A stretch of DNA of 64,000 bases from a virus (lineage: Duplodnaviria; Heunggongvirae; Uroviricota; Caudoviricetes), in the IMG/VR virus record IMGVR_UViG_3300046642_001000, positions 39,935 to 103,934 of that record. One strand, 5' to 3'. Positions 54,291 through 55,868 of the stretch are shown here, piece after piece. Under the pieces are notes generated by a model that was not told where the DNA came from, searched no databases, and saw only the letters and a list, made by a program, of their open reading frames with translations. Position 1 is the stretch's first letter; each line of letters starts with the position of its first letter. A program made the translations under genes and the position numbers.

Positions 54291-54779
54291 ATGGCCGAGA
54301 CGCTCGATACGGCGCACCTCTTGGCGAACAACTACGAGCCGAAGAGGAAGTTCAGGTGGGTCCTCCAGATCGACGGCATCGATGCGTTCGTCATGAAGAC
54401 CGCTGCTCGCCCGCAGCAGACGTTCGAAGAGACCGTCATCGACTTCATCAACACGAAGCGGTACGTCTCTGGCAAGGGGGCGTGGAACCCGATCGCGTGC
54501 ACGATGCACGATCCGATCGCCCCGTCCGCCTCGCAGAAGATCATGGACTGGGTGCGACTCAACTATGAGCCGCTCACCGGACGCATGGGCTACGCGTCCT
54601 TCTACAAGAAGGACATCAGCCTCAAGCTCCTGGATCCCCAGGGGACGGTGGTCGAGCTGTGGGACATCACCGGAGCGTGGCCGCAGGACGTGAACTTCGG
54701 TGACCTCGACTACGCCTCTTCGGACAACGTGGAAGTAAGCTTCAGCCTCCGATTCGACAACGCGACCCTGCAGTTCTAA
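54291..54779 (+). CDS. Tail tube protein (T4 gp19-like)
   Basis: 'YEPKRKFRW', 'RP', 'GK..W.PI..T..DPI', 'GAWP..V.FG.LDY', 'L.FDNA'. Confidence 0.9.
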   Translation: MAETLDTAHLLANNYEPKRKFRWVLQIDGIDAFVMKTAARPQQTFEETVIDFINTKRYVSGKGAWNPIACTMHDPIAPSASQKIMDWVRLNYEPLTGRMGYASFYKKDISLKLLDPQGTVVELWDITGAWPQDVNFGDLDYASSDNVEVSFSLRFDNATLQF

Positions 54780-54808
54780 AACGAGGGTCAACGACGGTAA
54801 GGCACCAG

Positions 54809-54838
54809 GGGCGGTCCGAAAGGGCCGCCCTTTTTTTT
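54809..54838 (+). terminator. Intrinsic terminator after the tail tube gene
   Basis: GGGCGGTCC-GAAA-GGGCCGCCC followed by T8. Confidence 0.9.
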
Positions 54839-54867
54839 GTGTACTTTTGGTGGGAGTGTGGTATAAT
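54839..54867 (+). promoter_or_regulatory. Sigma70-type extended -10 promoter
   Basis: TG-G-TATAAT (54859-54867), 10 nt upstream of ATG 54878; no SD, so near-leaderless. Confidence 0.7.
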
Positions 54868-54877
54868 TCTATTCACG

Positions 54878-55381
54878 ATGACGATCTCACAACTGCTTCG
54901 GAAGATCAGCAAGCTCAAGGGCGAAGTTCAGGAGCAGCGGGCGCGGGCCCAGGCTGCCACGGTCTACAAGGAGAAGGAGCCCCCGGCCTTCTCTTTCGAG
55001 GACTCCATGTGCGGCGCAGACCGCGCGGTGGAAGACCTCGTGACCTTCGAGGCGGCCCTCCGTCGGGCCAACTCTCTCACCACGGTGAGCCTGGCCGGTG
55101 GGAAGACGATCACCCTCTCCGAGGCGACCTGCCGCCTGCAGGAGCTGAAGGGCCGGATCGCCTGGCTGAAGACGCTGCCGTCGCAGGCGCAGAACAAGCG
55201 GTTCGTGGACTCGGTGGAGTACGACACCCTGGCCGAGAAGCCGCACAAGGTTACCACCACGTACGTCTGCCCGTTCCCGGAGGCGATGCGCTCCTCGGCC
55301 ATCCGGTCCGCGCAGGAGGCGTTCGACAGCCTCAATGATCTCGTAGAAACGGCCAACCACCAGACGGTGGTCGAGCTGTAA
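54878..55381 (+). CDS. DIP1984-like (DUF6847-type) helical protein
   Basis: Pattern M.(I/L)..LL....LK..(I/V)......E.P...E......L..L...(I/L)..AN..T.V...G..TL.EA....LK.RI..L..L...D.L...(I/V)...N..T.V recognised from memory of the DIP1984 family. Confidence 0.65.
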   Translation: MTISQLLRKISKLKGEVQEQRARAQAATVYKEKEPPAFSFEDSMCGADRAVEDLVTFEAALRRANSLTTVSLAGGKTITLSEATCRLQELKGRIAWLKTLPSQAQNKRFVDSVEYDTLAEKPHKVTTTYVCPFPEAMRSSAIRSAQEAFDSLNDLVETANHQTVVEL

Positions 55382-55384
55382 GGT

Positions 55385-55636
55385 TCGGGAAGAGGGGCGG
55401 CTGTACCTGAGACCGTCGGGTTGGCGACCGTAGGAACCGAGACTCCTCACCTAGGAGTCGAGGCGACTACAACCATTCAGGCTCGTCCAAAAGACGACCT
55501 ACAAAAACGACGACGACAAAGCATCTCAGCCGTCAGCGTTCAGACATGGAAGCCTTCAGCGGCCAGCAGCGAGCGTCGAGCACCTAGAGATTAGCGTGCC
55601 AACTAACGTTCACAGGGAAACCGCTCCTCTTCCCGA
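55385..55636 (+). ncRNA. Putative structured ncRNA / 3' RNA element with a heptad-repeat loop
   Basis: 16-bp closing stem 55385-55400/55621-55636 followed by T7; internal hairpins 55415-28, 55441-59, 55483-97; helices 55430-34/55498-502 and 55420-25/55598-603; no credible ORF. Confidence 0.75.
55516..55595 (+). repeat. Eleven phased 7-nt N4-AG(C/A) units
   Basis: ACAAAGC a TCTCAGC CGTCAGC GTTCAGA ca TGGAAGC CTTCAGC GGCCAGC AGCGAGC GTCGAGC ACCTAGA GATTAGC. Confidence 0.8.
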
Positions 55637-55652
55637 TTTTTTTGAGGTCCAC

Positions 55653-55823
55653 ATGGCCAAAGATCCTGAGATCACCGAGTGGCTCCGGAAGGCGATGGCC
55701 GAGTGGCGAGCCATGCCGGACGGTCCTGAGAAAGATCAGGTCGGTCGGGAGCTGGAGAAGAAGATCTCCGGCGTGATGGGGGCCCTCGACTCTCTCATCC
55801 CGGCCCGGCACCGGACGAACTAA
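55653..55823 (+). CDS. Small helical hypothetical protein (56 aa)
   Basis: SD GAGG, ATG 55653, MAKDPEITEWLRKAMAEW... Confidence 0.65.
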   Translation: MAKDPEITEWLRKAMAEWRAMPDGPEKDQVGRELEKKISGVMGALDSLIPARHRTN

Positions 55824-55834
55824 CGAAACTTTTT

Positions 55835-55863
55835 TTGGCACTTTTGACCAGTGAGGCTAATTT
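55835..55863 (+). promoter_or_regulatory. Sigma70-type promoter giving a probable leaderless transcript at ATG 55869
   Basis: TTGGCA-N17-TAATTT; the -10 box ends 5 nt before ATG. TAATTTATCCC-ATG also mirrors TATTTATCCC-GTG at 24278. Confidence 0.6.
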
Positions 55864-55868
55864 ATCCC

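What the first reader, a model, noticed from the sequence alone, without database searches (positions are those of the whole stretch)
54878..55636. DIP1984-like protein followed by a closed RNA loop of 11 phased heptamers: candidate ring-protein/RNA complex
Three nt after the stop codon, a 16-bp stem encloses ~250 nt. The 5' half is a multi-hairpin domain. The 3' half is a weakly paired array with AG(C/A) at 55520, 528, 535, 542, 551, 558, 565, 572, 579, 586 and 593, i.e. 7-nt spacing apart from one 8 and one 9. Variable spacers with a fixed trinucleotide in fixed register recall TRAP, an 11-mer ring that wraps 11 (G/U)AG repeats. Inference: the upstream helical protein oligomerises and binds one heptad per subunit, forming an undescribed RNP or an autoregulatory/terminator switch.
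Basis: partly seen in the sequence, partly recalled or inferred. Interest (0 to 1): 0.85.

Follow-up and report, generated by a model that had tools for sequence, protein, structure and literature searches.

The report
Undescribed heptad-repeat RNA partnering DIP1984-like gene
Right behind a small gene of unknown function, this soil phage encodes a roughly 250-base folded RNA that displays about ten evenly spaced 7-base units. The same gene-plus-RNA pair recurs in dozens of uncultured phages and, in altered form, in phage T5 and on bacterial plasmids, so it looks like an uncatalogued protein-RNA particle.

Summary
A 16-bp stem (55385-55400 / 55621-55636) starts 3 nt after the stop codon and encloses about 220 nt. 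AG(C/A) sits at all 11 listed positions, with 7-nt spacing apart from one 8 and one 9. This is far beyond chance.

It is a conserved RNA. In 52 of 55 non-redundant homologue loci, down to 26% protein identity, the same gene is followed by a covarying closing helix and an in-register AGCNNUN array. Gene neighbourhoods differ, so gene plus RNA is a self-contained cassette. No Rfam family and no paper matched.

Bona fide DIP1984/DUF6847 genes on plasmids, and T5.085 in phage T5, also carry a stem-closed 3' RNA. Their 7-nt periodicity is weaker and the core triplets differ.

The TRAP-like 11-mer ring is not supported:
- Unit number ranges from 7 to 14, with a mode of 10.
- The protein is helical.
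- The predicted self-interface is a two-fold dimer.

Direct binding is inferred, not shown. Earlier follow-ups of this scan found the same gene-RNA pair on other DNA. This window adds the clearest array, covariation statistics and the dimer model.

The parts
54807..54832 (+). Intrinsic terminator of the tail tube gene. It sets the cassette apart as its own transcription unit.
   Evidence: Terminator scan, 11-pair stem plus T run
54859..54867 (+). Promoter-like extended -10 (TGgTATAAT), 10 nt before the ATG and with no Shine-Dalgarno. This implies a leaderless or near-leaderless mRNA (inferred).
   Evidence: Read from the sequence. The consensus scan did not call it.
54878..55381 (+). 167-aa DIP1984/DUF6847-like helical protein gene
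   Evidence: ORF. Weak Pfam, NCBIfam and PHROG 1491 hits. AF2 pLDDT 94.7, best PDB match 3KDQ. 27 homologue clusters.
55385..55400 (+). P1, 5' arm of the closing helix
   Evidence: Covariation in 14 of 15 P1 pairs.
55406..55426 (+). P2/P3, 5' strands of the inner closing helix (CCUG, GA, CGU, GGUUGGCG)
   Evidence: MFE helices. Helices 2 and 3 of model R1 covary: 13 of 14 and 4 of 5 pairs.
55430..55470 (+). Hairpin H1 of the 5' domain
   Evidence: MFE. The 5' domain varies in hairpin number between subgroups.
55479..55500 (+). Hairpin H2 of the 5' domain
   Evidence: MFE. The equivalent hairpin covaries (helix 4).
55507..55519 (+). Conserved linker motif ACGACGACGACAA (family consensus GAYNNYGAYAC) just before the array
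   Evidence: Alignment A3 consensus. A similar GAUAUUACCGACAC precedes the T5 array.
55520..55599 (+). Array of 11 heptads. The family logo is A .99, G .93, C .76, N, N, U .78, N. Units at 55528-55586 are in register across 37 relatives.
55597..55616 (+). P3/P2, 3' strands. The last heptad runs directly into P3 (UGCCAACU).
55621..55636 (+). P1, 3' arm
55637..55643 (+). U7 tract after P1. It is probably the transcript end. A U-rich tail follows P1 in many but not all relatives.
   Evidence: Sequence. Tails listed.

Best explanation
The gene 54878-55381 and the RNA 55385-55636 form one two-part cassette that makes a protein-RNA particle.

Proposed mechanism:
1. A promoter just upstream gives a near-leaderless mRNA that runs on into the RNA.
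2. The two ends of the RNA pair in an interrupted helix of about 34 bp (P1-P2-P3), followed by U7. This helix ends the transcript and could also serve as a stalk for a double-strand RNase to cut the RNA free.
3. The helix closes a loop holding two hairpins, a conserved GAYNNYGAYAC linker and about ten heptads of the form U-N-A-G-C-N-N.
4. Copies of the DIP1984-like protein, predicted to be two-fold dimers, dock on the phased heptads. Roughly ten sites would take about five dimers.
5. Because protein and RNA come from one transcript, the RNA most likely holds or titrates its own protein, either as a scaffold or as a neutralising partner.

Shown: the RNA, its structure, its periodicity, its strict linkage to the gene, and its spread on phages and plasmids.
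Inferred: protein binding, stoichiometry, processing, and what the particle does.
For: Linkage:
- 52 of 55 non-redundant 3' flanks of homologues, at 26-100% protein identity, exceed the 99th percentile of 942 control windows for phased AG units.
- The units align in register.

RNA structure:
- Closing arms differ completely between subgroups yet stay complementary.
- Cognate arm duplexes average -48.8 kcal/mol against -35.5 for non-cognate, and the cognate arm is best in 19 of 53 cases.
- In a model-fitted alignment of 15 sequences, 85.6% of cells are paired against 64.2% in shuffles and 36-43% when partners are slid. P1, P2 and P3 show two-sided changes in 14/15, 13/14 and 4/5 pairs.
- RNAalifold on one subgroup found 7 compensatory pairs.
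- G-U pairs and a fixed orientation point to RNA, not DNA.

The cassette moves as a unit. It sits in the tail module here, among ThiF/JAB/HNH genes in L079, and among CoaE/NT5C genes elsewhere.

Wider family:
- Bona fide DIP1984 genes in five phyla have 260-620-nt unannotated 3' gaps. These carry a closing helix and a shared GGCG(A/U)G motif.
- Phage subgroup L014/15/17/18 carries both that motif and AG heptads.
- T5.085 has a 363-nt gap with a closing helix, z -4.8, and 7/8-nt periodicity.
- The core triplet seems to change with the protein clade: AGC, YAC/CAC, AAG. That fits recognition by the neighbouring protein, but the reading is tentative.

Self-association:
- ipSAE is 0.72 with a best control of 0.00. 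The mark was reached by 20 of 30 solved homodimers and 1 of 23 monomers. The three runs share at least 91% of their contacts and partner pLDDT is at least 86.
- Invariant polar and basic residues Q5, R8, K12, K14, N153, E157 and N160 lie outside the predicted interface.
Against: - There is no direct evidence of binding.
- The protein family is near neutral, median pI 6.7, and has no known RNA-binding domain.
- The dimer prediction may be memory of the four-chain crystal 3KDQ, and the calibration used two copies, not four.
- A two-fold dimer does not by itself read ten units of one polarity.
- Thermodynamic folding does not show the array as clearly unpaired: pairing probability 0.60 against 0.67 elsewhere.
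- The reverse test, whether the RNA ever occurs without the gene, was weak. A family-specific pattern found only two already known contigs.
- Periodicity in cellular relatives is marginal for single sequences.
- The covariation alignment was fitted to the structure.
Confidence: 0.55

Rival explanations
1. The RNA is bound by some other factor, a host protein or a phage protein encoded elsewhere. Alternatively it acts through RNA-RNA pairing. In either case the DIP1984-like gene is only its constant neighbour or processing helper.
For: The protein is not basic and has no RNA-binding domain. Phased AGCNNUC runs also occur in other phages that lack any DUF6847 gene. Other RNA genes often lie nearby: tRNAs here, RNase P RNA in six loci.
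Against: Gene and RNA stay adjacent, in the same order and a few nt apart, across phyla and changing neighbourhoods. The core triplet differs between protein clades. A shared host factor would not explain this across Actinomycetota, Pseudomonadota, Bacillota, cyanobacteria and phages.
Confidence: 0.15
2. This is a toxin-antitoxin-like or infection-related addiction module. The protein is harmful or active on its own, and the repeat RNA neutralises it, as in type III systems but with reversed gene order.
For: It is a two-part protein plus repeat-RNA cassette found almost only on mobile DNA. It occurs on small Acinetobacter plasmids (339 of 365 plasmid hits), on large actinobacterial plasmids, and in phages at variable positions.
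Against: No PADLOC model matches. The fold is not nuclease-like and matches only 3KDQ. The units are 7 nt, not the 34-45 nt of known type III antitoxins, and they lie inside one folded RNA rather than in a processed tandem array. The gene order is reversed.
Confidence: 0.15
3. It is a cis-acting 3' UTR device. P1 plus U7 is a terminator or stabiliser whose formation is tuned by protein binding to the array, controlling read-through into the downstream genes (here the 56-aa ORF and the tRNAs).
For: P1 is followed by U7 here and by U-rich tails in many relatives. The last heptad overlaps the 3' strand of P3, so binding could compete with helix formation.
Against: The U tract is not universal and the downstream genes differ in every subgroup. 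About 250 nt with extra covarying hairpins is far more than a terminator needs. The terminator scan does not call it.
Confidence: 0.1
4. It is a DNA-level element (iterons, origin, packaging or recombination site) or a slippage-generated microsatellite with no function.
For: It consists of short phased repeats in a non-coding gap.
Against: The helices use G-U pairs and compensatory changes on one strand only. The array lies on the gene's strand in every locus. The units share only 3-4 of 7 letters and are in register between relatives at 26-40% protein identity. Tandem Repeats Finder sees no repeat.
Confidence: 0.03

Closest known systems
TRAP (MtrB) with the trp leader of Bacillus subtilis
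   Same: Both have a row of phased triplets with an AG core and free spacers, about ten to eleven units, read (by hypothesis here) one unit per protein subunit.
   Different: The TRAP period is 5-6 nt and here it is 7. TRAP is an 11-mer beta-sandwich ring. Here the protein is a helical bundle with a predicted two-fold interface. The unit number is not fixed. The array lies inside a stem-closed RNA 3' of the gene, not in a 5' leader. This comparison rests on my knowledge of TRAP, apart from the tool results cited.
HutP with hut mRNA (Bacillus subtilis)
   Same: Both show a 7-nt period and an AG-containing triplet (UAG-N4 repeats).
   Different: HutP reads two blocks of three units. Here there are nine to ten contiguous units. 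The conserved U lies two bases before AG, not next to it. The protein fold is unrelated. The HutP system is a 5' antiterminator that depends on histidine and Mg. The HutP details are from my knowledge.
CsrB/RsmZ-type sponge RNAs with CsrA/RsmE dimers
   Same: Both are one RNA with many copies of a short motif that could load several symmetric protein dimers. The idea of titrating a protein is shared.
   Different: Csr motifs are GGA in hairpin loops at irregular spacing. Here the units are linear and strictly phased. No other arrays exist in this 64-kb window that could be regulatory targets. There is no Rfam match.
Ro60 (Rsr) with bacterial Y RNAs
   Same: Both are a gene-adjacent, stem-closed non-coding RNA forming a particle with the neighbouring protein. 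Both are found in bacteria and phages and lie near tRNA-related genes. Earlier follow-ups of this scan named this as the closest.
   Different: There is no Ro60/TROVE protein, no Y RNA or YrlA match in Rfam, and no heptad array in Y RNAs.
DIP1984 / DUF6847 / 'septicolysin' proteins (crystal structure 3KDQ)
   Same: The fold is the same, TM 0.76-0.82. There is weak but consistent sequence similarity: 23 of 29 relatives hit the NCBIfam model and two pass the Pfam cut-off. These genes too are followed by a stem-closed RNA.
   Different: The window protein scores below both curated cut-offs. The cellular RNAs have shorter, weaker arrays with other core triplets, plus a GGCG(A/U)G motif that most phage RNAs, this one included, lack.

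Membership tests
TRAP / trp-leader system | TRAP (MtrB) protein, an 11-subunit beta-sandwich ring | tested here: not met
   The neighbouring protein is four helices plus a beta-hairpin. There is no TRAP family hit in Pfam. The predicted interface is two-fold.
TRAP / trp-leader system | Eleven (G/U)AG triplets separated by 2-3 nt | tested here: not met
   Spacing counts are 7 nt in 174 steps, 9 in 31, 8 in 24 and 6 in 5. There are 7-14 units, mode 10.
HutP / hut antiterminator | UAG-N4 repeats in two blocks of three in a 5' leader, read by a HutP hexamer | tested here: not met
   The period of 7 is shared. But there are nine to ten contiguous units, U sits at -2 rather than -1, the element lies 3' of the gene, and no HutP family hit was found.
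Csr/Rsm sponge RNAs | Many GGA motifs in hairpin loops, with a match to the Rfam CsrB/RsmX/Y/Z models | tested here: not met
   No Rfam match even at E up to 10. The motif is AGC in a linear array.
Y RNA with Ro60 | Ro60/TROVE gene next to the RNA, with a Y RNA or YrlA model match | tested here: not met
   The neighbour has the DIP1984-like fold. Rfam found only tRNA and RNase P RNA in 21 loci.
Type III toxin-antitoxin (ToxIN, CptIN, TenpIN) | Endoribonuclease toxin preceded by tandem 34-45-nt RNA repeats | tested here: not met
   There is no PADLOC hit. The units are 7 nt, the RNA lies after the gene, and the fold matches only 3KDQ.
DIP1984 / DUF6847 protein family | Score over the curated cut-off of PF20935 (27 bits) or NF038048 (70 bits) | tested here: inconclusive
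   The window protein scores 15.6 and 22.9 bits. Relatives L054 and L061 score 28.4 and 33.3 bits on Pfam. It is a divergent branch.
DIP1984 / DUF6847 protein family | Fold of the solved member 3KDQ | tested here: met
   Foldseek E 7e-4, TM 0.76 by query and 0.82 by target, over 166 columns. 3KDQ matches a bona fide member at 1.4e-17.
Intrinsic (Rho-independent) terminator | G+C-rich stem with a short loop, followed directly by a U run | tested here: inconclusive
   The stem and U7 are present, but the 'loop' is 220 nt. The scan, which allows loops of 3-8 nt, does not call it. The 3' end is not mapped.
Any Rfam 15 family | Covariance-model match at or near the gathering score | tested here: not met
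   The window region's best hit is a chance match at 13 bits, E 1. Nothing over the element was found in 20 phage loci or in 5 cellular loci at E up to 1.

The most novel reading that the evidence does not exclude
The DIP1984/DUF6847 proteins, a widespread family of unknown function on phages and plasmids, would be the protein half of a so far unrecognised class of ribonucleoprotein. The partner RNA, closed by a long helix, would act as a ruler. Its phased 7-nt units would set how many protein dimers assemble, about five in this phage clade. RNA motif and protein specificity would have co-evolved, giving AGC, YAC and AAG cores in different clades.
Probability: 0.4. Interest if true: 0.88.

Novelty: categorically new. 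Interest (0 to 1): 0.8.

Why it matters
The finding would give a first functional handle on DIP1984/DUF6847/'septicolysin', a protein family with a solved structure (3KDQ) but no known role. The family is common on Acinetobacter resistance plasmids and in phages, including the model phage T5.

It would also add a large, ornate RNA family that the catalogues lack. Its architecture, about ten in-register heptads displayed in a loop closed by a helix of about 34 bp, has no described counterpart.

Because T5 and E. coli, and small Acinetobacter plasmids, carry versions of the pair, the hypothesis can be tested at the bench with standard tools.

Tried and rejected
- Tandem Repeats Finder found nothing. 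The units share too few letters.
- Rfam at gathering and permissive thresholds found nothing on the window, 20 phage loci or 5 cellular loci.
- No whole genome is held for the window.
- tblastn of three phage-clade proteins against 50,697 GenBank phage records found no match. The AGC clade is known only from metagenomes.
- A generic five-heptad pattern search in viral contigs was not specific. It returned more than 119 loci of a different kind, none with a DIP1984-like ORF.
- A family-specific pattern returned only two known contigs, so the reverse association test is weak.
- RNAalifold on a plain MAFFT alignment of 37 full elements gave no structure, because the arms were out of register. A narrow covariance model solved this for 15 sequences.
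- The narrow model did not reach the cellular RNAs or T5. Their homology to the phage RNA therefore rests on position, architecture and shared motifs.
- Sequencing runs: 24 soil and rhizosphere DNA holders, and no RNA holder listed.
- Literature searches for DIP1984, DUF6847, septicolysin with sRNA, T5.085, and heptamer repeats in phage RNAs found nothing relevant.

Ideas dropped:
- An RNA tape measure for the tail. Large ORFs follow the baseplate hub gene, and the cassette lies outside tail modules in other phages.
- Anticodon-loop or tRNA mimicry by the heptads. No consistent register was found.
- A sponge for a regulator of other arrays. There are no other arrays in the window.

Full report
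WHAT IS THERE

The window is part of a large, G+C-rich myovirus-like phage known only from soil and rhizosphere metagenomes. The gene order around the finding is:
- sheath gene, virion protein, T4 gp19-like tail tube gene at 54291-54779
- a clean terminator at 54807-54832
- the 167-aa gene at 54878-55381
- a 271-nt gap
- a 56-aa ORF
- three tRNA-like genes at 56312-56546
- a baseplate hub gene

An extended -10 box (TGgTATAAT, 54859-54867) lies 10 nt before the ATG and there is no Shine-Dalgarno. The gene and the gap behind it therefore look like one separate, near-leaderless transcription unit. This is read and is inferred.

- The stop codon ends at 55381. The arms 55385-55400 and 55621-55636 form 16 pairs with one G-U, followed by seven U.
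- A score for chains of phased AG(C/A) gives 29. 2000 dinucleotide shuffles gave a mean of 5.6 and a maximum of 15.3. The next best tile of the whole window on either strand scores 10.2.
- The gap folds at -104.5 kcal/mol, z -4.7.
- Tandem Repeats Finder is blind to the array because only 3-4 of 7 letters are fixed.

IT IS A CONSERVED RNA

The protein has 27 homologue clusters. Scans with their alignment fetched 24 viral, 34 metagenome and 13 'genome' loci. The 'genome' loci are mostly large contigs binned with Patescibacteria or unnamed Gammaproteobacteria.

The array:
- In 52 of 55 non-redundant loci, the 450 nt after the homologue's stop codon beat the 99th percentile of 942 control windows from the same loci. 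The other three have arrays broken by insertions.
- The unit logo is A .99, G .93, C .76, N, N, U .78, N. The U was not part of the search criterion.
- Steps between units are 7 nt in 174 cases, 9 in 31, 8 in 24 and 6 in 5.
- In a 37-sequence alignment nine unit columns are in register. They correspond to 55528-55586 of the window.
- The array is preceded by a conserved GAYNNYGAYAC linker.
- Extra hairpins are tolerated at three fixed places: after units 3, 4 and 6.
- This is an old, position-specific layout and not recent slippage.
- The unit number is 7-14 with a mode of 10. The '11' of this window is not a family constant.

The closing helix:
- Its sequence differs totally between subgroups, yet the arms always match. 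Examples are purine-rich GGAAGAGGGG types, UAGGGUACG types and GGGUGACGGACG types.
- With fixed windows, so without choosing the stems, cognate 5' and 3' segments pair at -48.8 kcal/mol on average against -35.5 for non-cognate pairs. The cognate partner is the best of 53 in 19 cases.
- One subgroup alone gives 7 compensatory pairs.
- A covariance model built from five short members found the window's element end to end (55386-55635, 25.5 bits, E 1.5e-5) and 14 others.
- On that alignment 85.6% of cells pair, against 64.2% in shuffles (0 of 500 as high) and 36-43% when partners are slid.
- P1, P2 and P3 show two-sided changes in 14/15, 13/14 and 4/5 pairs and are 95, 85 and 95% paired.
- Helices that the seed predicted inside the array are the least kept, at 65-77%.
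- Caveat: the alignment was fitted to the model.
- G-U pairs, the strand-specific array and the constant orientation exclude a plain DNA repeat.

In summary, the RNA is an interrupted closing helix of about 34 bp, a variable 5' domain of two to four hairpins, the linker, and an array whose last unit runs into P3. Single-sequence thermodynamics do not show the array as clearly open (0.60 against 0.67 pairing probability). The claim that it is displayed single-stranded rests on the lack of conserved pairing.

A SELF-CONTAINED CASSETTE

The pair sits in the tail module here. In L079 it lies among VWA, JAB, ThiF and HNH genes. In another contig it lies among small early-type genes, CoaE, a metallophosphatase and NT5C. 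The 56-aa ORF after it is kept only in the closest relatives. The RNA often lies close to other RNA genes: tRNAs here and in L032 and L036, and a phage-borne RNase P RNA directly after it in six loci.

THE PROTEIN

- The AF2 model is confident (pLDDT 94.7). It shows four long helices plus a beta-hairpin.
- The only significant solved match is 3KDQ, which is the solved DIP1984-family member.
- Sequence models hit weakly, and two relatives pass the Pfam cut-off. The phage proteins are therefore a divergent branch of DUF6847.
- The family is near neutral, median pI 6.7, and matches no defence model.
- Four copies folded together give ipSAE 0.72 against a best control of 0.00. The mark was reached by 20 of 30 solved homodimers and 1 of 23 monomers. 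The runs share at least 91% of their contacts and partner pLDDT is at least 86.
- Both copies use the same residues, so the interface is a two-fold dimer and not a head-to-tail ring contact. The result may reflect memory of the four-chain 3KDQ crystal.
- Invariant Q5, R8, K12, K14, N153, E157 and N160 lie outside that interface. They are my candidates for an RNA-contact patch (inference).

THE WIDER FAMILY

I then asked whether true DIP1984 genes have such an RNA. A member scoring 148 bits in a small genome (L205), and annotated DIP1984 genes on plasmids, all have 260-620 nt of unannotated DNA behind them. The plasmids come from Acinetobacter, Psychrobacter, Enterococcus, Picosynechococcus, Mycolicibacterium, Mycobacterium, Streptomyces and Streptantibioticus.

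- They lack AGC arrays.
- Each has a closing helix starting a few nt after the stop. Its arms differ between genera but match within each sequence.
- Next to the helix is a shared GGCG(A/U)G ... (N)GA motif that looks like a kink-turn or tandem G-A element.
- The same GGGCGAGUA occurs in phage subgroup L014/15/17/18, which also has AG heptads. This bridges the two groups.
- The cellular RNAs show weaker 7-nt periodicity with YAC or CAC cores. It is significant only in some single sequences, so this point is tentative.
- Rfam has nothing for them.

Following a lead from earlier notes of this scan, I checked phage T5:
- T5.085 is annotated 'tail fiber protein' and belongs to phrog_1491 at 276 bits. 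The window protein hits the same PHROG at E 0.005.
- It is followed by a 363-nt gap.
- The gap has a closing helix of more than 20 bp (z -4.8), a GAUAUUACCGACAC linker, and AAG-type units with lag-7/8 periodicity above all shuffles.
- The profile match of T5.085 to the phage clade is weak (E 4.5e-4 over 38 columns).

HOW IT MOST LIKELY WORKS

The strict adjacency through changing neighbourhoods and phyla, together with a core triplet that seems to change with the protein clade, is best explained by a dedicated protein-RNA pair. The RNA is made in cis behind the protein's coding region. Its ends zip into the long helix, which is a terminator here and possibly a processing stalk. Protein dimers load onto the phased units. 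I put this at about 0.55.

What the particle does is open. The distribution on phages and plasmids, and the nearness to tRNA and RNase P genes, allow a scaffold or neutralising role, or a role in RNA metabolism. The rivals are another binder, a toxin-antitoxin-like module, a read-through switch and a DNA element. They are listed with their evidence in the rival explanations.

COMPARISON WITH KNOWN SYSTEMS

It works most like TRAP or HutP (phased AG triplets) or like Csr-type sponges (many sites, symmetric dimers). It is laid out like Ro60 with Y RNA (a neighbouring gene plus a stem-closed RNA). It fails the defining features of every one of these (see the membership table). No paper or Rfam family describes it.

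Earlier follow-ups in this scan reached the same gene-RNA pairing on other genomes. This window contributes four things:
- the clade with the longest and cleanest array
- statistics on linkage and covariation
- the bridge between phage and cellular forms
- the dimer prediction that argues against a simple ring

Noticed in passing
L112, L127, L128, L134 and other loci L080-L198 (for example L128:1516-1581 and L128:1947-1977): In other viral contigs of 34-48 kb, nearly every intergenic gap holds a run of 3-9 AGCNNTC heptads followed about 20 nt later by its inverted counterpart. This gives hairpins of 5-bp TCAGC/GCTGA blocks with 2-nt mismatches. No DUF6847 gene was found in five such records, two of them complete. 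Unexplained.
   Followed up: partly
L020:3414-3775, L021:3305-3644, L022:3722-4065, L023:3303-3632, L025:3301-3791, L027:3298-3636: Six related phage loci carry a full bacterial-type RNase P RNA gene (RF00010, 254-308 bits) directly after the heptad RNA.
   Followed up: no
window 54859-54880 and 55835-55871: Two genes are preceded by the same ACTTTTG ... -10 box layout, with the ATG only about 7-10 nt after the -10 and no Shine-Dalgarno. This suggests leaderless mRNAs in this phage.
   Followed up: no
L213-L217, about 110-125 nt after the DIP1984 stop codon: The actinobacterial DIP1984-linked RNAs contain a near-perfect tRNA T-arm look-alike, GGGGUUCGACUCCCC, conserved in five plasmids.
   Followed up: no
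L205, L210, L211, L220 (just inside the closing helix): A conserved GGC-GA-GUA opposite UAC-N-GA next to the closing helix has the layout of a kink-turn. Some phage versions keep the tandem G-A but lose the bulge.
   Followed up: partly
NC_005859 43505-44143 (L224:1206-1844, minus strand): T5.085 is annotated 'tail fiber protein', as is PHROG 1491. The fold relatives and the variable genomic context of the family suggest this label is wrong.
   Followed up: partly
window 55653-55823: A 56-aa ORF with a GAGG ribosome-binding site follows the RNA. It is conserved only in the closest relatives (87% clade) and has no family match.
   Followed up: partly
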